64,000 nt of DNA from Mucilaginibacter sp. UBA5151 (GTDB lineage: Bacteria; Bacteroidota; Bacteroidia; Sphingobacteriales; Sphingobacteriaceae), in contig DHXR01000052.1 in the NCBI GenBank assembly GCA_002413785.1, forward strand, positions 7,380 through 71,379, read 5' to 3'. The position numbers and the translations under genes were made by a program. Under the pieces are notes generated by a model. That model was not told the origin of the DNA. It saw only the letters and a program-made list of their open reading frames with translations, and searched no databases. Of the stretch, positions 40,652 to 47,480 are shown one piece after another (the first letter of the stretch is position 1; each line of letters opens with the position of its first letter).

Positions 40652-41593
40652 TTAATTACAGGTGTGATCACCTTTATTTATACCGCTTATAAGTGTCTTA
40701 AAGGCAATACCAGCTGAAGTATTAGCTCTAGGAGTAGCTAAAAAGGCAGTGCCGTATGGAGGGAGCAGGGGTACACCTGAAACACCGCCTATATAAGCAT
40801 TAGCAGTGTTTAACCCAGTCTGGTCATACACGGCTCCTGATATCTGGTTTAAATATGCAGGTATTAATTGACTTGCCACAGCTAATAAACCGTTTCCTTG
40901 AACAGGCGCCCACAAAATTTGCTGACATTGCAGATAAGTATAAGAATTGGTTCCTATTGTCAGGCTGGTTGTAGCATCAACATACCCGGGCCAAAGGCTA
41001 ACGTCTGTATTCATATAGTAACCCTGACCACCATGTATACAGGCAGCTGTAGGACAATCAAGCGTTGAAGCTGTCAATATGTTCGACCATAGGCTTTTAT
41101 TCTTCTTACTATCCCCATGAGCGAAAGCCCTGAAAACATAGGCCGTACCGCAAGTCAGATCGCCCGGGCAATTTGTGGAAGCTCCATTGTCCAATAAGAG
41201 ATCTCCGATCGTTACTGTAACAGATCCTCCGGCAGCCAGGTTATAATTTGATGCAAACGCCTTGCCTGAAAACGAGGCCTTACAAAATTGTGTTGTATCT
41301 AAAGGCCAAACATCATTAATAGCATCAAACTGTGCTTTTGTCATCCATTGAATCGAAAAACCCGCAGGCGCCCCAGTCCCGGGAGTAGGCATAGTAACAG
41401 TAATGTCAATTGATTGAAGGGTAGCAACGCCGGCTGATAATATGGGCGTATCATACATGCCCGCACTTTTGCCACCTGAAGCATCACTGGTAACAGTGGG
41501 GCTTTTGTGCGCGTCTTTTTTACAGCCGTAAAATACCAGGGCTGCAAGGCCTGCAACCAGCAGGGCTGATAAGAGAAATTTGTAAGGTTTCAT
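40652..41593 (-). CDS. Hypothetical lipoprotein
   Basis: Lipobox FYGC; Cys-containing Ig/FN3-like middle region; GQGYY...GNGLLAVASQLIPAYLN C-terminal domain. Confidence 0.75.
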   Translation of the reverse strand: MKPYKFLLSALLVAGLAALVFYGCKKDAHKSPTVTSDASGGKSAGMYDTPILSAGVATLQSIDITVTMPTPGTGAPAGFSIQWMTKAQFDAINDVWPLDTTQFCKASFSGKAFASNYNLAAGGSVTVTIGDLLLDNGASTNCPGDLTCGTAYVFRAFAHGDSKKNKSLWSNILTASTLDCPTAACIHGGQGYYMNTDVSLWPGYVDATTSLTIGTNSYTYLQCQQILWAPVQGNGLLAVASQLIPAYLNQISGAVYDQTGLNTANAYIGGVSGVPLLPPYGTAFLATPRANTSAGIAFKTLISGINKGDHTCN

Positions 41594-42095: not shown

Positions 42096-42126
42096 TTTGA
42101 TAAATTCATTTTAACCTGTACATTTA
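42096..42126 (+). promoter_or_regulatory. Putative housekeeping promoter of the aro operon
   Basis: TTTG (42096-42099), 19 nt, TACATTTA (one mismatch to TAnnTTTG). Confidence 0.45.
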
Positions 42127-42143
42127 CGCCGTAAACAAAAACA

Positions 42144-42209
42144 ATGAAATTCAACAATGCATATTTTTATGGTTACTACTTTTACTTTACCAGTAAGAGC
42201 CGGGACTAA
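42144..42209 (+). CDS. Tyr/Phe-rich attenuator leader peptide (21 aa)
   Basis: MKFNNAYFYGYYFYFTSKSRD*; residues 7-15 are 5 Tyr and 3 Phe; A-rich Bacteroidota-type initiation context. Confidence 0.85.
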   Translation: MKFNNAYFYGYYFYFTSKSRD

Positions 42210-42237
42210 TATGCATCAAAAACATATAAAGAAACTG

Positions 42238-42267
42238 AAAAGTCCCGGCCAAAAACCGGGACTTTTT
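42238..42267 (+). terminator. Attenuator terminator hairpin
   Basis: AAAAGTCCCGG-CCAAAAA-CCGGGACTTTTT; its 5' arm is complementary to leader bases 42199-42207. Confidence 0.85.
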
Positions 42268-42283
42268 GCATTAAAGGTGATTT

Positions 42284-43192
42284 ATGAAAACTGATAAACC
42301 AAGAGTTGCCATACAAGGGATCCGCGCTTCCTTCCACGAAGAAGCGGCGCTGAAATATTTCGGCGAAGATATCCATACCATTGAATGCAACTCTTTTAAG
42401 CAAACGTTTGAGGCTTTACAAAAAAAAGAAGCCGACTATGTGGTGATGGCTATAGAAAACAGCATTGCAGGCAGCATTTTGCCCAACTATTCGCTGTTGC
42501 TCAGTTACGCATTTCCTGTGGTTGGCGAAATTTACCTGCCTATACAACTGCATTTAATGGCTTTACCGGGCGTAAAGTTTGATGATGTAAAATATGTCAC
42601 CTCCCACCCTATTGCCATCCGCCAGTGTGTTGATTTTTTTGACGAATACCCCCACCTTAAAATCATCGAAAGCAATGATACCGCCGCCTGCGCCAAACGC
42701 ATCCGCGATGAACAGCTTACAGATACCGTTGCCATCGCAAACACCCTGGCTGCAAGGCTGTACGGACTTGACGTTCTGGAACGCCGCATAGAATCGAACA
42801 AGAAAAACTTTACCCGTTTCCTGATCCTCACCCATCACGAAAACGTGACTAAAAAACAGCCAAACAAAGCTTCCTTATGCTTCGAGGTAAGCAATAAGGT
42901 TGGCGCGCTGGCCAAGGTGCTCAATATTTTTTCCGAGGAAGGCGTTAATATGAGCAAAATACAATCCATGCCTGTTTTGGGCAAACGGAACGAATATAAT
43001 TTTTATGTGGACATTGAATGGGATGAAGCCCGTCAGTATGATACCGCCATCAGGAAAATCCTTAAATACACCCATAATTTTAATATCCTGGGCGAATATG
43101 AAAGGCATGTTGACGAAGGTGATATTGCACCAAAGCCCGCAAAGAATGAAAAAATACCGAGGAAATATATTAATATAAAGAAAATGGGATGA
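42284..43192 (+). CDS. pheA: Prephenate dehydratase with ACT domain
   Basis: QGIRASFH, IENSIAG, SHPIA, NFTRF, KIQSMP. Confidence 0.93.
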   Translation: MKTDKPRVAIQGIRASFHEEAALKYFGEDIHTIECNSFKQTFEALQKKEADYVVMAIENSIAGSILPNYSLLLSYAFPVVGEIYLPIQLHLMALPGVKFDDVKYVTSHPIAIRQCVDFFDEYPHLKIIESNDTAACAKRIRDEQLTDTVAIANTLAARLYGLDVLERRIESNKKNFTRFLILTHHENVTKKQPNKASLCFEVSNKVGALAKVLNIFSEEGVNMSKIQSMPVLGKRNEYNFYVDIEWDEARQYDTAIRKILKYTHNFNILGEYERHVDEGDIAPKPAKNEKIPRKYINIKKMG

Positions 43193-43371
43193 AAAGAAGT
43201 CCGGAAGGAGCTGCAGCTAAAAGAGGTTGCAGCTAAAGTCTCCCCCTACCGGGGGAGATTTAGAGGGGGCTGGGCAGTCACCAGATAAACGAAAACAAAT
43301 TAAACATAGAGCTAATAACATAAACAAAACAACAATTAACCTTCCGGACTTTCGGACTACAAAAAAAAACG

Positions 43372-44499
43372 ATGAAACTAAATTTAAACATACAACCGCT
43401 TAGCTCCTGGATAAAAACAGGCAGCGAACCATTATTGATTGCCGGCCCATGCAGCGCCGAATCAGAAGACCAATTAGTTGCTACGGCGCATTTACTGGCA
43501 AAAACAGGCAAAGTATCGGCATTACGTGCCGGCATCTGGAAACCACGTACCCGTCCGGGTGAGTTTGAAGGCATTGGCAGTATTGGTTTGGAATGGCTTA
43601 AACGCGCCAAAGAAGAAACCGGCCTGCCCACCACCGTTGAAGTAGCCAACGCCAAACACGTGGAAGAAGCTTTAAAAGCAGGTGTTGACATTTTATGGGT
43701 TGGCGCGCGCTCAACCGTAAACCCTTTTACTGTTCAGGAAATTGCCGACGCCCTGCGTGGTGTTGATATCCCGGTGATGGTAAAAAACCCGGTAAACCCT
43801 GATCTTTCCTTATGGATCGGCGCCCTGGAGCGTATCAACAATGCAGGCATCACCAAACTGGCAGCTATTCACCGCGGCTTCTCCTCACACGAAAAAAGCG
43901 CTTTCCGCAATGAGCCTATGTGGGACTTAGCCATCAGCCTGAAAACACATGCACCTGAATTGCCAATCATTTGCGACCCAAGCCATATTTCGGGTAACCG
44001 CGACCTGATCGGGTACATCTCACAAAAAGCGCTTGACCTTGACATGCAGGGCTTGATGATAGAATCGCACATTGATCCAAGCGTGGCCTGGACCGATGCC
44101 AAACAACAGGTTACCCCTGATGCTTTAGCCGAAATTATTGAGCACTTAACCCTGCGCAAACCTGAATTCCGCAATGCCGAGTTAAAGGACAAACTGGCTG
44201 AATTACGTAACCAGATTGATAAAATTGACGACCTGGTGATTCAGAAAATGGCAGAACGCATGAAAATTGTTGAGCAGATAGGCAACTACAAAAAGGATAA
44301 CAACGTCACCATTTTGCAGGTTAACCGTTGGGACGAAATATTGCAGAAACGCACCAATTATGCCAAAGCCTTAAAATTAAGTCCTGAGTTTACCGAAAAA
44401 TTACTGGAACTGATACACAGCGAATCTATCCGTAAACAAACAGAGATTATGAATAAGGATGCAGCAGGACAAGCGGCTGAAAAATTAACACACGCGTAA
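43372..44499 (+). CDS. Bifunctional DAHP synthase / chorismate mutase
   Basis: IAGPCSAE, WKPRTRPG, VGARST, DPSH, GLMIESH; C-terminal LRNQIDKID chorismate mutase domain. Confidence 0.93.
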   Translation: MKLNLNIQPLSSWIKTGSEPLLIAGPCSAESEDQLVATAHLLAKTGKVSALRAGIWKPRTRPGEFEGIGSIGLEWLKRAKEETGLPTTVEVANAKHVEEALKAGVDILWVGARSTVNPFTVQEIADALRGVDIPVMVKNPVNPDLSLWIGALERINNAGITKLAAIHRGFSSHEKSAFRNEPMWDLAISLKTHAPELPIICDPSHISGNRDLIGYISQKALDLDMQGLMIESHIDPSVAWTDAKQQVTPDALAEIIEHLTLRKPEFRNAELKDKLAELRNQIDKIDDLVIQKMAERMKIVEQIGNYKKDNNVTILQVNRWDEILQKRTNYAKALKLSPEFTEKLLELIHSESIRKQTEIMNKDAAGQAAEKLTHA

Positions 44500-44502
44500 T
44501 TC

Positions 44503-44615
44503 GCCTCACCCTGCCCTCTCTCCGAAGGAGTCCGGAGTCCTTCGGACCAAAGGAGAGGGTTTTTAAAAAAGAGCGAAGTTTAAGTCCTCTCCTTTGGAGA
44601 GGATTTAGGTGGGGC
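44503..44615. repeat. REP doublet with nested GGAGTCC...GGAC palindrome
   Basis: Same family as 33247-33354. Confidence 0.8.
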
Positions 44616-44678
44616 CTCGCAGGTTAAAAAAAAAGCGAAGTTTAAGTCCTCTCCTTTGAAGAGGATTCAAAAAAGGGG

Positions 44679-44789
44679 TGTCATGGTGAGGCACTCGAAC
44701 CATGTGGGGTGGCCTGTACGGCTTTGCATAGCCGTTATTGCATTGACGTTGTGCCTTTGCGCACATGGTTCGAGTGCCTCACCATGACA
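44679..44789. mobile_element. 111-bp MITE/REPIN, inverted copy of 29863-29972
   Basis: Identical 26-bp arms and a highly similar interior. Confidence 0.85.
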
Positions 44790-44825
44790 CCCAAAGCTAC
44801 AGGGAAAATACCTATATAATAAATA

Positions 44826-46160
44826 ATGAAGCATAACATCATCCTTACCAAAAAAAGCAAATCAGTAAAGGGTACCGTACACCTCACCGGTTCAAAAAGT
44901 GAATGTAACCGCGCCCTTATTATTGAAGCGCTGAGCAACGGTAAAGTAAAGGTTGAGAATATTTCGGATGCCGCGGATACGGTGACGCTCGCAGGTATCC
45001 TGCGGGCAGAGGTTAGAGATAAGAGATTAGAGATTAGTCAAACAAATAATTCCGGGGTTAATCCCCTAAGCTCTAATCTCCAATCTCCAATCTCTGAAAT
45101 CAACATCGGTCCTGCCGGCACGGCTATGCGCTTTTTAACGGCTTACTTCACTTTACAGCCTGCCTGCCGGACAGGCAGGGATGAAGAAGTGATTTTAACC
45201 GGCAGTGAACGCATGAAACAACGTCCGATAGGAATTTTGGTGGATGCTTTACGCGAACTGGGCGCGCATATTGAATACGTTGAAAACGAGGGTTTTCCCC
45301 CTATCAAATTGAAAGGCAGTCTGGAGCAGCTTTCTAATAAGGTCAGTATAAAAGGAAATATAAGCAGTCAGTACATCACTGCGCTATTGCTTATAGCTGC
45401 CCGGCTGCCTTTTGGTTTGGAATTAAATATTGAAGGAGAACTTACTTCGCGCCCTTATGTGGAGATGACACTGGCCATGCTGCAAACCGCAGGGATACAG
45501 CATACCTGGGAAGGCAATACCATCAGCATAAAACACCAGGAATTTACGCCAACCTTGTTGCATGTGGAACCGGATTGGAGCGCGGCTTCTTATTGGTACG
45601 CCATTGCAGCTTTGGCTGATGAAGCCGAATTGTTTTTACCAGGCTTAACGCAATACAGCCTGCAGGGCGACAGCGTGATCACGGAGATTATGGCTAATTT
45701 TGGCATCACCTCGCAGTTTAAAGATGGCGGTGTTTATTTACAGAAGGAAGTAAAACCGGTTATCCGCAAAATATTCGATCTGAAAGAATGTCCCGACCTG
45801 GCCCAAACCATCATCGTGGTATGCGCTGCATTAGGCCATGAAGCTACCTTTACAGGATTAGAAACTTTAAAGATCAAGGAAACCGACCGCATAAAGGCCC
45901 TGCAAAATGAGCTGGCAAAAATCGGCGTTAAGCTAATTGAAAAAGGACAGGTTTATAAACTGGATTGCAGCGAAAAATTCATCCCCGAACGTATATTTGT
46001 AAACACCTATGACGATCACCGCATGGCAATGGCCTTTGCGCCGCTGGCCCTGCTGATAAACGAAGTAGAAATTGAAGATGCGCAGGTAGTTGAAAAATCG
46101 TACCCCGCATTTTGGAAGGATTTGGAGAAGGTGGGATTTGAGGGAGAGATTAGAGGTTAG
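44826..46160 (+). CDS. aroA: EPSP synthase with two repeat-derived in-frame insertions
   Basis: GSKSECNR, GPAGTAMR, RMKQRP, SSQY, KETDR, DDHRMAM, KSYP. Confidence 0.96.
   Translation: MKHNIILTKKSKSVKGTVHLTGSKSECNRALIIEALSNGKVKVENISDAADTVTLAGILRAEVRDKRLEISQTNNSGVNPLSSNLQSPISEINIGPAGTAMRFLTAYFTLQPACRTGRDEEVILTGSERMKQRPIGILVDALRELGAHIEYVENEGFPPIKLKGSLEQLSNKVSIKGNISSQYITALLLIAARLPFGLELNIEGELTSRPYVEMTLAMLQTAGIQHTWEGNTISIKHQEFTPTLLHVEPDWSAASYWYAIAALADEAELFLPGLTQYSLQGDSVITEIMANFGITSQFKDGGVYLQKEVKPVIRKIFDLKECPDLAQTIIVVCAALGHEATFTGLETLKIKETDRIKALQNELAKIGVKLIEKGQVYKLDCSEKFIPERIFVNTYDDHRMAMAFAPLALLINEVEIEDAQVVEKSYPAFWKDLEKVGFEGEIRG
45008..45095. repeat. Heptamer-arm inverted-repeat element inside aroA
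   Basis: Left arm 26/30 identical to 11985-12014; right arm 45066-45095. Confidence 0.85.
45159..45179. repeat. 21-bp palindrome inside aroA, encoding PACRTGR
   Basis: CCTGCCTG-CCGGA-CAGGCAGG, exactly 7 codons. Confidence 0.85.
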
Positions 46161-46274
46161 AGATTGGAGATTAGAAGGAGCCTGATCTCCAGGCCCTAAA
46201 AAAACCAATGACACAATGACTAATGACAAAAAAATCGGTGCAATCATAAAAAAATCGGTGTAATCACAAAAAAT

Positions 46275-47369
46275 ATGGCAGGCAATTCATTCGGGCAAAT
46301 ATTCAGGATAACAACTTTTGGCGAGTCGCATGGCGAAGCTATCGGTGTAATTATTGACGGCTGTCCGGCGCAACTGGAGGTTGATCTGGATTATATCCAG
46401 GGCGAACTGGACAAACGCAAACCGGGGCAGTCGAAAATTACTACGCAGCGTAAGGAAAGCGATACGGTAAAAATTCTTTCCGGTGTTTTTGAGGGCAAAA
46501 CCACGGGCACCCCAATTGCCATGCTGATACCCAATGAGGACCAGCGCTCAAAAGATTATACCCATAATGTGGATGTGTTCCGTCCATCGCATGCGGATTA
46601 TACCTATCAAACAAAATATGGCATCCGCGACCATCGCGGCGGCGGCCGTTCATCAGCCCGCGAAACCGCGGCCCGTGTTGCAGCAGGCGCCCTGGCGAAA
46701 TTGCTGCTCAAAACACAGGGCATAGAAATTGTGGCCCATGTAAGCAGCGTTGGAAAAATAAACGCTCCGAATGTGGAGATCAATGATGCATTGGCTTTTA
46801 TCGGCGAACGCGAAAAAAACATCGTCCGCTGCGCCGATGCCGCAACGGCCGTAGAAATGATTGAATATATCGACGGCATCCGTAAAAAGGGTGACACCGT
46901 TGGCGGCAAAATAAGCTGCTATATTACAAACTGCCCGGTCGGCCTCGGCGAACCTGTATTTGACAAACTGCACGCCGAATTGGGCAAAGCCATGCTGAGC
47001 ATTAACGCGGTTCATGGCTTTGAATATGGCTCCGGCTTTGCAGGAAGTGAAATGCTCGGGTCGGAACATAACGACATATTTGTTAAAAGCCATTTGGGCG
47101 ATATAGAAACCCTCACCAATTTTTCGGGCGGCATACAGGGTGGTATCAGCAACGGTATGCCTATTGAGTTTAAAGTGGCATTTAAACCGGTAGCTACCAT
47201 TATGCAAAGCCAGGCTACGGTTGATAGCGAAGGCAATGCCGCCGAAATATCGGGCAAAGGCCGTCATGATCCCTGCGTAGTGCCGCGTGCCGTGCCTATC
47301 GTAGAGGCAATGGCCGCTTTGGTTTTGGCAGATCATTGGCTGAGGAACAGGACTACCAGGCTGAGGTGA
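46275..47369 (+). CDS. aroC: Chorismate synthase
   Basis: [33 protein letters not shown]. Confidence 0.98.
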
Positions 47370-47432
47370 AAGGTATCTTTAAAATCAGTAAGATTTGTCA
47401 ACTTTTAAAAAGTTGACAAATCTATCCCCACT

Positions 47433-47480
47433 CATCCGCACATCTGCATATCTGCACATCTGCACATCTGCACATCTGCA
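47433..47480. repeat. Six tandem CATCTGCA octamers
   Basis: Two units carry one substitution; ends about 10 bp before the TATCTTTG promoter motif. Confidence 0.9.

What the first reader, a model, noticed from the sequence alone, without database searches (positions are those of the whole stretch)
42144..42283. Unannotated Tyr/Phe leader-peptide attenuator controlling the aromatic biosynthesis operon
Seen: a 21-codon uORF MKFNNAYFYGYYFYFTSKSRD with 8 of 9 consecutive codons Tyr or Phe. The terminator 42238-42267 ends 16 nt before the pheA ATG. Leader bases GCCGGGACT (42199-42207) pair perfectly with AGTCCCGGC (42241-42249), giving a mutually exclusive antiterminator that a ribosome at the stop codon would mask. 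Known: this is the logic of pheL/trpL attenuation. Inference: a dual Tyr+Phe sensor over pheA-DAHP synthase/CM and perhaps aroA-aroC; I do not recall it being characterised in Sphingobacteriaceae.
Basis: partly seen in the sequence, partly recalled or inferred. Interest (0 to 1): 0.8.

Follow-up and report, generated by a model that had tools for sequence, protein, structure and literature searches.

The report
Tyr/Phe leader-peptide attenuator of pheA
A 21-codon mini-gene packed with tyrosine and phenylalanine codons, followed by competing RNA hairpins and a terminator, most likely lets this soil Sphingobacteriaceae bacterium switch on its aromatic amino-acid genes when Tyr or Phe runs short. 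It is real and strongly conserved, but it is a classical kind of switch already predicted in related bacteria.

Summary
The uORF (42144-42209) reads MKFNNAYFYGYYFYFTSKSRD. A hairpin plus U-tract ends at 42267, 16 nt before pheA. GCCGGGACU (42199-42207, overlapping the UAA stop) is the exact complement of the terminator's 5' arm.

It is not chance. Only 2 of 70,382 small ORFs in this genome reach 8/9 aromatic residues. An equivalent uORF precedes pheA in 47 of 48 Sphingobacteriaceae genomes examined, and the core RNA motif occurs in at least 119 named Pedobacter/Mucilaginibacter-type genomes. Similar leaders precede pheA in other families of the phylum. There the segment at the uORF's end changes together with the terminator arm (cognate -12.6 vs non-cognate -7.8 kcal/mol; 0/10,000 permutations).

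The best reading is a trp/pheL-style ribosome-mediated transcription attenuator that senses both Tyr and Phe.

It matches no Rfam family. The kind is already known, though. An aromatic leader before pheA was predicted, with transcriptome support, in Flavobacterium psychrophilum (2021), and F/Y-rich attenuators were predicted in Firmicutes (2019). This scan has noted Tyr/Phe attenuators before in Clostridia, but not this sequence.

Side finds: the genome has no detectable TyrA but carries an aromatic hydroxylase, and Tyr-only leaders precede the hydroxylase gene phhA in Roseivirga relatives.

The parts
42097..42126 (+). Putative Bacteroidota-type promoter: -33 TTG (42097-42099), a 19-nt spacer, and a -7 box TACATTTA (42119-42126). 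The transcription start is expected near 42132-42136, giving an A-rich 5' UTR of about 10 nt without a Shine-Dalgarno sequence.
   Evidence: Read from the sequence. The T-A..TTT positions of the -7 box are invariant or nearly so in the 30-sequence alignment A1. The consensus TAnnTTTG is from my own knowledge. A SigA promoter of this type is mapped before the F. psychrophilum pheA leader (PMC9723704 supplement).
42144..42209 (+). Leader ORF, 21 codons plus TAA: MKFNNAYFYGYYFYFTSKSRD.
42162..42188 (+). Regulatory codon run TAT TTT TAT GGT TAC TAC TTT TAC TTT (5 Tyr, 3 Phe, 1 Gly). This is the presumed ribosome stalling zone.
   Evidence: The aromatic run is conserved with free Y/F (and some W) interchange in relatives.
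42157..42165 (+). Segment 1a (AUGCAUAUU, Ala-Tyr-Phe codons). It is the 5' arm of the outer helix of the 1:2 hairpin and pairs with 42208-42216.
   Evidence: MFE fold. Covariation GC:12, AU:9, GU:4 at one pair, and helix 85% paired.
42179..42199 (+). Inner hairpin of the 1:2 structure: CUUUUACU (42179-42186), loop UUACC, AGUAAGAG (42192-42199).
   Evidence: RNAalifold consensus. 96-97% of cells paired, with double changes.
42199..42207 (+). Region 2, GCCGGGACU. It is the 5' strand of the antiterminator, lies in the last codons, and overlaps the stop codon by one base.
42208..42227 (+). Segment 2b (AAUAUGCAU, 42208-42216) pairs either with 1a or with 2c (CAUAU, 42223-42227). The 2b:2c pairing forms an apical hairpin inside the antiterminator loop.
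   Evidence: The region 2 to region 3 segment folds as a base helix plus an internal hairpin in all 30 relatives, in most cases the 2b:2c apical hairpin. Window fold.
42237..42267 (+). Intrinsic terminator: a 12-bp stem (core GUCCCGG/CCGGGAC), a 7-nt loop, and U-tract 42263-42267. Its 5' arm contains region 3, AGUCCCGGC (42241-42249).
   Evidence: -18.4 kcal/mol. 98% of cells paired with 4 double-change pairs. The plus-strand scan did not list it; its listing criteria are one reason.
42284..43192 (+). pheA, prephenate dehydratase with an ACT domain. First regulated gene.
   Evidence: Pfam PDT 7.7e-58 plus ACT.
43372..44499 (+). Bifunctional DAHP synthase / chorismate mutase.
   Evidence: Pfam DAHP_synth_1 plus CM_2. 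NCBIfam hits are below their cutoffs.
44826..47369 (+). aroA (EPSP synthase, 44826-46160) and aroC (chorismate synthase, 46275-47369). They are possibly co-transcribed.
   Evidence: Pfam. The order pheA>DAHPS/CM>aroA>aroC holds in 30 of 33 named relatives with enough flank. No TAnnTTTG box lies in the gaps. However, a -28 kcal hairpin followed by U5 sits at 44513-44564.

Best explanation
This is a ribosome-mediated (leader-peptide) transcription attenuator of the pheA-DAHPS/chorismate mutase (-aroA-aroC) cluster. Transcription starts about 10 nt before a 21-codon leader ORF. When charged tRNA-Tyr and tRNA-Phe are plentiful, the ribosome runs to the UAA. There its footprint covers region 2 (GCCGGGACU) and segment 2b. 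Region 3 therefore pairs with region 4, the terminator forms, and RNA polymerase stops at about 42267. When either tRNA is poorly charged, the ribosome stalls in the run of 5 Tyr and 3 Phe codons (42162-42188). That covers segment 1a and the inner hairpin but leaves region 2 free. Region 2 then pairs with region 3, helped by the small 2b:2c hairpin. The terminator cannot form and pheA is transcribed. On ribosome-free RNA the 1:2 hairpin probably acts as a pause or anti-antiterminator element. Shown here: the sequence anatomy, its conservation and the covariation. Inferred: stalling, termination, read-through, and the response to both amino acids.
For: Anatomy and coordinates are exact. The leader folds well: z = -3.8, and 1:2 -16.7, 2:3 -15.4, terminator -18.4 kcal/mol. 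Blocking the RNA as a ribosome at codons 7-14 would leaves the 2:3 helix as the best fold before region 4 exists. A ribosome at the stop codon abolishes it. Aromatic richness is exceptional: 2 of 70,382 small ORFs. The uORF is present in 47/48 pheA-bearing family genomes. The core motif occurs in at least 119 named Pedobacter, Mucilaginibacter and Paradesertivirga genomes. The OFF structure is 93.7% paired with 9 double-change pairs, reached by 0/500 shuffles. The antiterminator is 93% paired against 17-57% when slid. All 30 relatives fold region 2 to region 3 as a two-tier hairpin. In other families the terminator arm differs (CCCAGCC, UCCCGAU, GUCUCGA, CCUCG, AUCCUG) and the segment at the uORF's end is complementary each time. 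Cognate duplexes average -12.6 against -7.8 kcal/mol, with 0/10,000 permutations as good. In 16-codon variants the nucleotides AGUAAGAGCCGGGAC are kept but read in another frame, so the conserved 'SKSRD' reflects RNA-level selection. Codon make-up tracks the regulated gene: Tyr-only leaders with terminators precede phhA. The same genome has Trp and Thr/Ile leaders before trpD and thrA. F. psychrophilum shows condition-dependent read-through of its pheA leader (PMC9723704).
Against: Within the family the antiterminator is almost invariant, so covariation for it comes from more distant and partly related genomes. The 1:2 hairpin does not strictly exclude 2:3. Region 2 lies mostly in an internal loop, the proposed mid helix is not supported, and untranslated RNA cut after region 3 folds best with the antiterminator (-21.0). 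The behaviour without translation is therefore unclear. The U-tract has only 5 U's here (6-9 in most relatives). The simple scan did not list the terminator on the plus strand. Which amino acid limits in vivo is unknown.
Confidence: 0.85

Rival explanations
1. The element is a single-amino-acid sensor, effectively Phe-only or Tyr-only. The other aromatic codons are tolerated neutral neighbours, since TTY and TAY differ by one base, or are fixed by the RNA pairing of the inner hairpin.
For: The 3' half of the run (UAC UAC UUU UAC UUU) is constrained by the inner helix CUUUUACU:AGUAAGAG. Y and F interchange freely among relatives. Some relatives are strongly Phe-biased (Y1-2, F7). E. coli pheL uses Phe only (own knowledge; PMC3082878).
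Against: Every one of 47 family leaders keeps both Tyr and Phe codons. Leaders before phhA, whose product is Tyr, have Tyr runs with Phe absent from the run, so composition looks selected. The operon includes common-pathway enzymes needed for both amino acids.
Confidence: 0.1
2. The uORF is not a sensor. It serves as a translation-loading or reinitiation aid, or encodes a functional micro-peptide. The hairpin is a constitutive, leaky terminator or an RNA-stability element.
For: Bacteroidota lack Shine-Dalgarno-led initiation, and leader genes have been proposed to boost downstream translation (PMC4833913). The peptide C-terminus SKSRD looks conserved.
Against: The stop codon lies 74 nt and a full terminator away from the pheA ATG. 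The 'SKSRD' conservation is at the nucleotide level and survives a frame change. The N-terminus is variable, and only the aromatic character is kept. The antiterminator co-varies with the terminator, which a constitutive terminator would not need.
Confidence: 0.03
3. The terminator/antiterminator switch is set by a factor other than the ribosome, such as a T-box-like tRNA contact, a TRAP/PyrR-like protein or a small-molecule riboswitch. The uORF would then be incidental.
For: Aromatic operons are controlled that way in Firmicutes (own knowledge). No experiment here excludes it.
Against: No Rfam riboswitch or T-box match reaches the threshold. The best hits are sub-threshold leader families. 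The leader has no room for an aptamer, since the uORF occupies almost everything upstream of region 2. An incidental ORF would not keep an aromatic run in 47/48 genomes and across families.
Confidence: 0.02

Closest known systems
Flavobacterium psychrophilum pheA-aspC3 leader (THC0290_N_0195; Guerin et al. 2021, ISME Commun, PMC9723704, Table S7 / SI D9)
   Same: It is from the same phylum and sits in the same position, just upstream of pheA. It has an aromatic-rich uORF (MNTNNTFYSNNSFYFYWNIGRDCYMVI) whose end (…GRD, GGGAUUG) complements the terminator arm. It has a terminator with a U-tract and no Rfam match. It was annotated there as a leader-peptide attenuation element, with a mapped TSS and condition-dependent read-through. 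Leaders of that type in my sample (e.g. MASNRFYFSNNFYFFFSRSQDCAMVI) share the architecture.
   Different: It comes from a different family, has a longer uORF and a different terminator sequence, and the downstream operon is pheA-aspC. My covariance model built from Sphingobacteriaceae reached two leaders of that family (L042, L050) but did not detect the Flavobacterium-genus type leaders (e.g. L072-L074). Homology is therefore likely but was not shown directly, and the F. psychrophilum sequence itself was not compared. That paper gave no covariation analysis and no Sphingobacteriaceae data.
E. coli pheL-pheA attenuator (Rfam Phe_leader RF01859)
   Same: The logic is the same: a short leader ORF with regulatory codons, 1:2 / 2:3 / 3:4 alternative hairpins, an intrinsic terminator just before pheA, and a stop codon next to region 2.
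   Different: It uses Phe codons only, it is gammaproteobacterial, and it depends on a Shine-Dalgarno sequence. The Rfam score here is 20.3 bits against a gathering score of 55, so there is no detectable sequence relationship.
[quoted passage not shown] 2019, BMC Microbiol, PMC6429828)
   Same: They have F/Y-rich leader peptides upstream of shikimate and Tyr/Phe biosynthesis genes or transporters, and were predicted to be attenuators sensing aromatic amino acids.
   Different: They are from Firmicutes only, have different RNA structures and gene contexts, and show no sequence relationship. They are a functional analogue, not a relative.
Bacteroid-trp (Rfam RF01692; Weinberg et al. 2010, PMC2864571)
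   Same: It is a Bacteroidota leader-peptide attenuator of an aromatic amino-acid operon. It gave a sub-threshold match here (23.4 bits).
   Different: It has Trp codons, sits upstream of the trp operon, and its gathering score of 49 is not reached.
Merino/Yanofsky predicted attenuator before B. thetaiotaomicron pheA>hisHb>aroA-aroQ>tyrA (cited in Song et al. 2005, PMC1173090, Table 7)
   Same: It is a predicted terminator/antiterminator upstream of pheA in a Bacteroidota genome.
   Different: Only a structure-based database entry is cited, and the table names no leader peptide. I could not examine that locus by name.

Membership tests
Ribosome-mediated (leader-peptide) transcription attenuators (trp/phe/his class) | A short translated ORF in the leader with a run of codons for the amino acid(s) made by the operon. 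| tested here: met
   21 codons, with 8 of 9 consecutive codons Tyr or Phe, upstream of pheA-DAHPS/CM. Genome-wide rarity is 2/70,382. Conserved in 47/48 relatives. Translation itself was not observed.
Ribosome-mediated (leader-peptide) transcription attenuators (trp/phe/his class) | An intrinsic terminator between the leader ORF and the first structural gene. | tested here: met
   A 12-bp stem of -18.4 kcal/mol with U5 ends 16 nt before pheA. 98% paired, with compensatory changes. Termination in vivo was not tested.
Ribosome-mediated (leader-peptide) transcription attenuators (trp/phe/his class) | An antiterminator that shares a strand with the terminator and whose other strand lies where a ribosome at the stop codon masks it. 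| tested here: met
   GCCGGGACU (42199-42207) overlaps the UAA and pairs with 42241-42249. 93% paired in the family. It co-varies with the terminator arm across families.
Ribosome-mediated (leader-peptide) transcription attenuators (trp/phe/his class) | A 1:2 (pause / anti-antiterminator) hairpin involving the regulatory codons that excludes 2:3. | tested here: inconclusive
   The outer and inner helices are conserved and co-vary. However, they overlap region 2 by only 1 nt. The mid helix that would sequester region 2 is not supported. Truncated naked RNA prefers 2:3.
Ribosome-mediated (leader-peptide) transcription attenuators (trp/phe/his class) | Read-through rises when the cognate aminoacyl-tRNA is scarce. 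| not testable with these tools
The only indirect support is F. psychrophilum expression data (PMC9723704).
Rfam Phe_leader RF01859 | Covariance-model score at or above the gathering threshold (55 bits). | tested here: not met
   20.3 bits, E = 1.2.
Rfam Bacteroid-trp RF01692 | Score at or above 49 bits, with a Trp-codon leader upstream of trp genes. | tested here: not met
   23.4 bits, E = 6. The leader has no Trp codon and the gene downstream is pheA.
Bacteroidota pheA aromatic leader (as predicted in Flavobacteriaceae, PMC9723704) | An aromatic-rich uORF and a terminator directly upstream of pheA in Bacteroidota, with the uORF's end complementary to the terminator arm. | tested here: met
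   Model R1 finds such leaders before pheA in at least 5 other families at 34-73 bits. A uORF scan finds them before pheA in 17 of 18 newly fetched 'same class' loci plus one from outside the class. Direct alignment with the published F. psychrophilum sequence was not done.

The most novel reading that the evidence does not exclude
The codon make-up of these Bacteroidota leaders is tuned to the local route of tyrosine synthesis. This genome and its genus have no detectable TyrA (neither PDH_N nor PDH_C) but carry a roughly 590-aa aromatic amino-acid hydroxylase. Tyr may therefore be made from Phe, which would make the pheA operon the only source of both amino acids and its Tyr-rich leader the cell's tyrosine sensor. 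In line with this, TyrA-less Sphingobacteriaceae leaders average 4.3 Tyr and 3.3 Phe codons, against 2.8 and 4.3 where TyrA is present. In a Cytophagales family (Roseivirga and relatives), the hydroxylase gene phhA itself sits behind Tyr-only leader-peptide attenuators. I found no earlier description of that arrangement.
Probability: 0.35. Interest if true: 0.55.

Novelty: new member of a known kind. Interest (0 to 1): 0.35.

Why it matters
The work supplies a well-supported, unannotated regulatory element for a large group of soil bacteria (Pedobacter, Mucilaginibacter and relatives). It has defined parts, an alignment and a covariance model that could seed an Rfam family, since none exists for Bacteroidota pheA leaders. 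It also shows that classical attenuation works with the very short, Shine-Dalgarno-less leaders of Bacteroidota. The wider survey suggests that leader codon composition can be read as a reporter of pathway wiring: Phe+Tyr before pheA and Tyr alone before phhA. That is useful for metabolic reconstruction. Mechanistically it adds nothing new to the trp/pheL paradigm.

Tried and rejected
- **Rfam:** a scan at permissive E-values found nothing above gathering. The top hits (STnc260, Arrc14) match only the terminator.
- **Mid helix UGGUU:GACUA:** this would explain the conserved Gly codon and make 1:2 exclude 2:3. It was only 78% paired and no better than shuffles, so I dropped it. The conserved Gly remains unexplained.
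- **Weak model R1 hits (E > 1e-4):** these are mostly bare terminators or other leaders (one His leader), not further copies. The own genome has a single copy.
- **Leader-like ORF scan of the genome:** a 'Leu leader' candidate (C72) precedes an fn3-domain protein and was rejected as a false positive. Two Ile/Val and Thr/Ile candidates had no nearby long ORF and were not pursued.
- **TyrA, hydroxylase and leader composition:** there is a trend but no clean rule. Several TyrA-less, hydroxylase-less genomes still have Tyr-rich leaders, and the genomes are related, so I do not claim a correlation.
- **Families labelled 'same phylum' only:** an aromatic uORF before pheA was found in one sampled genome (G112) and in none of the other sampled ones.
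- **Vitreschak et al. 2004 (FEMS Microbiol Lett):** from memory it mentions Bacteroidetes attenuators, but it is not held, so any claim in it is unchecked.

Full report
**1. The observation**

- The ATG is at 42144 and the frame reads MKFNNAYFYGYYFYFTSKSRD, with TAA at 42207-42209.
- Codons 7-15 are TAT TTT TAT GGT TAC TAC TTT TAC TTT, so 8 of 9 are Tyr or Phe.
- GCCGGGACT occupies 42199-42207 and its exact complement AGTCCCGGC occupies 42241-42249.
- The hairpin AAAAGTCCCGG-CCAAAAA-CCGGGACTTTTT ends at 42267, and the next ATG, at 42284, opens a 302-aa ORF.
- That ORF is prephenate dehydratase plus an ACT domain. It is followed by a DAHP synthase/chorismate mutase fusion, EPSP synthase and chorismate synthase, all on the plus strand.
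- The upstream neighbour is divergent (40652-41593, minus strand). The terminator therefore cannot belong to another gene.

**2. Is it more than chance?**

- The 164-nt leader folds at -38.2 kcal/mol, z = -3.8, and none of 200 shuffles folds as well.
- Among 70,382 ATG-initiated ORFs of 10-45 codons in the whole 4.74-Mb genome, only two reach 8 aromatic residues in 9. This is one of them.
- The decisive evidence is comparative. I fetched pheA loci from 60 genomes of the same family. In all 30 returned loci a 16-23-codon aromatic-rich ORF lies 120-145 nt upstream of pheA and is followed by a hairpin and U-tract. One of them starts with GTG.
- After I fetched the remaining pheA-bearing genomes, 47 of 48 have it. 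The exception has a divergent pheA (38% identity).
All are Pedobacter, Mucilaginibacter, Paradesertivirga or unnamed Sphingobacteriaceae/Bacteroidota MAGs.
- The window is closest to Mucilaginibacter-like records.

**3. Anatomy**

Alignment A1 shows a conserved -7 box (TAcaTTTg; in the window TACATTTA at 42119-42126) with a TTG 19 nt upstream. This fits the Bacteroidota sigma-A promoter (own knowledge; the same type is mapped before the F. psychrophilum pheA leader). It would give an A-rich 5' UTR of about 10 nt without a Shine-Dalgarno sequence.

Downstream, four pairings are conserved:
- an outer helix between the Ala-Tyr-Phe codons (42157-42165) and the nine bases after the stop codon (42208-42216);
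- an inner hairpin, CUUUUACU/AGUAAGAG (42179-42199);
- the terminator (42237-42267);
- the alternative helix, region 2 with region 3.

Counting pairs on A1 gave these results.
- The 'OFF' set (outer helix, inner helix, terminator) is 93.7% paired with 9 pairs showing double changes. None of 500 shuffles reaches this, and slid registers give 36-52%.
- The antiterminator is 93% paired against 17-57% when slid. It is nearly invariant in the family, with only two GC-to-AU double-change cells.
- Folding the region 2 to region 3 segment of each of the 30 relatives always gives the base helix plus an internal hairpin, at -10 to -21 kcal/mol. In most it is a small apical hairpin in which the post-stop segment 2b pairs with a segment 2c just before the terminator. 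Segment 2b therefore switches partner between 1a (OFF) and 2c (ON).

**4. RNA-level versus peptide-level conservation**

The apparently conserved C-terminus SKSRD is an RNA signal. In five relatives the ORF ends 5 codons earlier (…YYYQ*), because the same nucleotides AGUAAGAGCCGGGAC are read in another frame (CAG UAA). The N-terminal residues vary freely. Within the run, Y, F and sometimes W interchange. This pattern suits regulatory codons and does not suit a functional peptide.

**5. Wider distribution and covariation of the antiterminator**

- A covariance model (R1) built from the family finds one copy in the own genome (130 bits).
- It finds full-length hits directly upstream of pheA in several other families of the phylum (34-73 bits). 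Examples of the leaders are MKQIGTYFGFYFFYFYFKSKSRVVFANN, MKRFNTYFWFYYYFFKALPGFERVAVCC and MMLQNTWQGFYFYFYFFYKS.
- A scan for aromatic uORFs upstream of pheA in 59 further genomes found them in 17 of 18 newly fetched 'same class' loci. Among the other genomes of the phylum it found one (G112).
- In these distant leaders the terminator stems differ in sequence: GUCCCGG, CCCAGCC, UCCCGAU, GUCUCGA, CCUCG, AUCCUG, AAUCCCG. In nearly every case the best complement of the terminator's 5' arm lies within about 30 nt upstream of, or across, the uORF stop codon.
- On the model-guided alignment A3, region 2 was unpaired in the model and so not fitted. For the 16 leaders from outside the family, cognate region 2/terminator-arm duplexes average -12.6 kcal/mol against -7.8 for non-cognate pairs. 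None of 10,000 permutations matches the observed total. Some of these genomes are related, so the figure overstates independence. Even so, it is the compensatory evidence that the family-level alignment could not give.

**6. How it most likely works**

I used ViennaRNA with the 5' part blocked as a ribosome would block it.
- A ribosome with its A site at any of codons 7-14 leaves region 2 free. The best fold of the RNA made up to region 3 is then the antiterminator (about -15.6 kcal/mol).
- A ribosome at the stop codon blocks region 2 and 2b, so only the terminator (-18.4) can form.
- Plentiful Tyr-tRNA and Phe-tRNA therefore give termination at about 42267. Scarcity of either gives read-through.
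- One point differs from the textbook trp picture. The 1:2 hairpin overlaps region 2 by only one base. A mid helix that would bury region 2 is not supported by comparison. Naked RNA cut after region 3 folds best with the antiterminator (-21.0). Whether untranslated transcripts terminate, as in 'superattenuation', depends on folding kinetics that I cannot assess. The 1:2 hairpin may mainly serve as a pause site.

**7. What is regulated**

- Among named relatives with at least 5.2 kb of downstream sequence, 30 of 33 have pheA > DAHPS/CM > aroA > aroC on one strand.
- In this genome the gaps (180, 327 and 114 nt) are swollen by REP-like palindromes.
- No TAnnTTTG box lies in these gaps. However, the hairpin at 44513-44559 (-28 kcal/mol) is followed by five U's and could stop part of the transcripts after the DAHPS/CM gene.
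- Control of pheA and DAHPS/CM is therefore the safe claim. Control of aroA-aroC remains open.

**8. Why Tyr as well as Phe?**

- The operon encodes common-pathway steps needed for both amino acids.
- This genome (100% complete by markers) has no prephenate/arogenate dehydrogenase detectable with either Pfam model. The only PDH_N hits are ProC-like.
- It has a 591-aa aromatic amino-acid hydroxylase (NF010657, 773 bits).
- In the family, TyrA is found in 20 of 61 genomes and the two models agree. It is found in none of 3 genomes of the own genus. The hydroxylase is found in 32 of 61.
- Leaders in TyrA-less genomes average 4.3 Tyr, 3.3 Phe and 0.3 Trp codons. Leaders in TyrA-bearing genomes average 2.8, 4.3 and 1.0.
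- This trend is suggestive only. The genomes are related, and several TyrA-less, hydroxylase-less genomes still have Tyr-rich leaders.
- A clearer natural experiment turned up by accident. An R1 hit in a Roseivirga genome (named through) lies before a 252-aa phenylalanine hydroxylase gene. Its leader reads MLHSNAYYYHYYHATQARNGSRMF.
- In that family, 7 of 22 phhA loci carry Tyr-run leaders without Phe in the run, for example MNFSAQNYYYYYYYRE… and MKHKYYYYYVLQ…. Each is followed by a strong terminator (-16 to -22 kcal/mol, U5-8).
- Three of five such genomes gave no pheA hit at E <= 1e-20.
- Codon composition thus follows the product of the regulated gene. This supports reading the mixed run in the window as a true dual sensor.

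**9. What is known**

- Rfam 15 has no family for this element. The best leader-type hits are far below threshold: Bacteroid-trp 23.4/49, Thr_leader 22.5/55, Phe_leader 20.3/55.
- The literature search found three relevant sources:
  - Guerin et al. [quoted passage not shown] They report a mapped TSS, read-through in nutrient-poor media, conservation in Flavobacteriaceae and no Rfam hit.
  - Stav et al. 2019 (PMC6429828) name two F/Y-rich 'aromatic amino acid attenuators' in Firmicutes. The lead came from earlier notes of this scan, and I checked it.
  - Song et al. 2005 (PMC1173090) list a database-predicted attenuator before B. thetaiotaomicron pheA.
- I found nothing on Sphingobacteriaceae and nothing on Tyr-only leaders before phhA.
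- This scan has reported Tyr/Phe attenuators before in Clostridia, but has no look-alike of this sequence.

**10. Verdict**

The element is real, strongly conserved and almost certainly a classical ribosome-mediated attenuator responding to Tyr and Phe supply. It is a new, unannotated member of a kind already predicted in the same phylum, so the novelty is modest. The added value here is:
- the family- and phylum-wide comparative support, including covariation of the antiterminator;
- the two-tier antiterminator model;
- the link between leader codon make-up and the route of tyrosine synthesis.

All functional steps remain inferred.

Noticed in passing
L047:1509-1640 (a Roseivirga genome; also L252-L257, L269, L273): Tyr-only leader peptides precede the phenylalanine-4-hydroxylase gene phhA in 7 of 22 genomes of one Cytophagales family. 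Examples are MLHSNAYYYHYYHATQARNGSRMF, MNFSAQNYYYYYYYRE… and MKHKYYYYYVLQ…. Each is followed by a strong intrinsic terminator. Three of five such genomes gave no pheA hit at E <= 1e-20. This looks like a Tyr-specific attenuator family controlling Tyr synthesis from Phe. I found no description of it.
   Followed up: partly
own genome G000:C47 (L247:181-1956, minus strand); whole-genome searches: The window's genome has no detectable prephenate/arogenate dehydrogenase (neither PDH_N nor PDH_C). It encodes a 591-aa aromatic amino-acid hydroxylase (NF010657, 773 bits). TyrA is found in only 20 of 61 sampled Sphingobacteriaceae genomes and the hydroxylase in 32 of 61. Tyr may be made from Phe in many of them.
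   Followed up: partly
47 Sphingobacteriaceae pheA leaders: Leaders in TyrA-less genomes carry more Tyr and fewer Phe/Trp codons (mean Y 4.3, F 3.3, W 0.3) than leaders in TyrA-bearing genomes (Y 2.8, F 4.3, W 1.0). The genomes are related and there are exceptions, so this is only a trend.
   Followed up: partly
L039:1343-1636: One genome of another family (G166) has two complete Phe/Tyr attenuators in tandem before pheA. Each has its own uORF (MNNTFTNNSFYFFYFFSKG and MTLTITYFNFYFFYFFSKSRLGM) and its own terminator.
   Followed up: no
own genome G000:C52 (L249) and G000:C25 (L250): The same genome has two other unannotated leader-peptide attenuator candidates. MKTINNNWWWLNG with a -18 kcal terminator precedes trpD. 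MTSNNTTITTITTTGVKLGGR with a -21.5 kcal terminator precedes thrA (aspartokinase-homoserine dehydrogenase). Neither reaches an Rfam gathering score.
   Followed up: partly
window 43209-43262, 44513-44564, 44575-44665, 44678-44794, 46164-46195: The gaps between the aromatic genes are filled with REP-like palindromes. One is a long inverted repeat of about 115 nt before aroA. Another is a -28 kcal hairpin followed by five U's right after the DAHPS/CM stop codon. Relatives have much shorter gaps (at least the one checked, G033).
   Followed up: partly
window 47391-47423 and 47436-47480: A perfect 15-bp hairpin (z = -8) follows aroC. After it comes a tandem 8-mer repeat (GCACATCT, about 5 copies) just upstream of the MFS transporter gene.
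   Followed up: no
window 42171-42173 (Gly codon GGT in the middle of the aromatic run): The Gly codon that interrupts the Tyr/Phe run is nearly invariant in the family (GG at least 90% conserved). The helix that would explain it (UGGUU:GACUA) is not supported by comparison, so its role is unexplained.
   Followed up: partly
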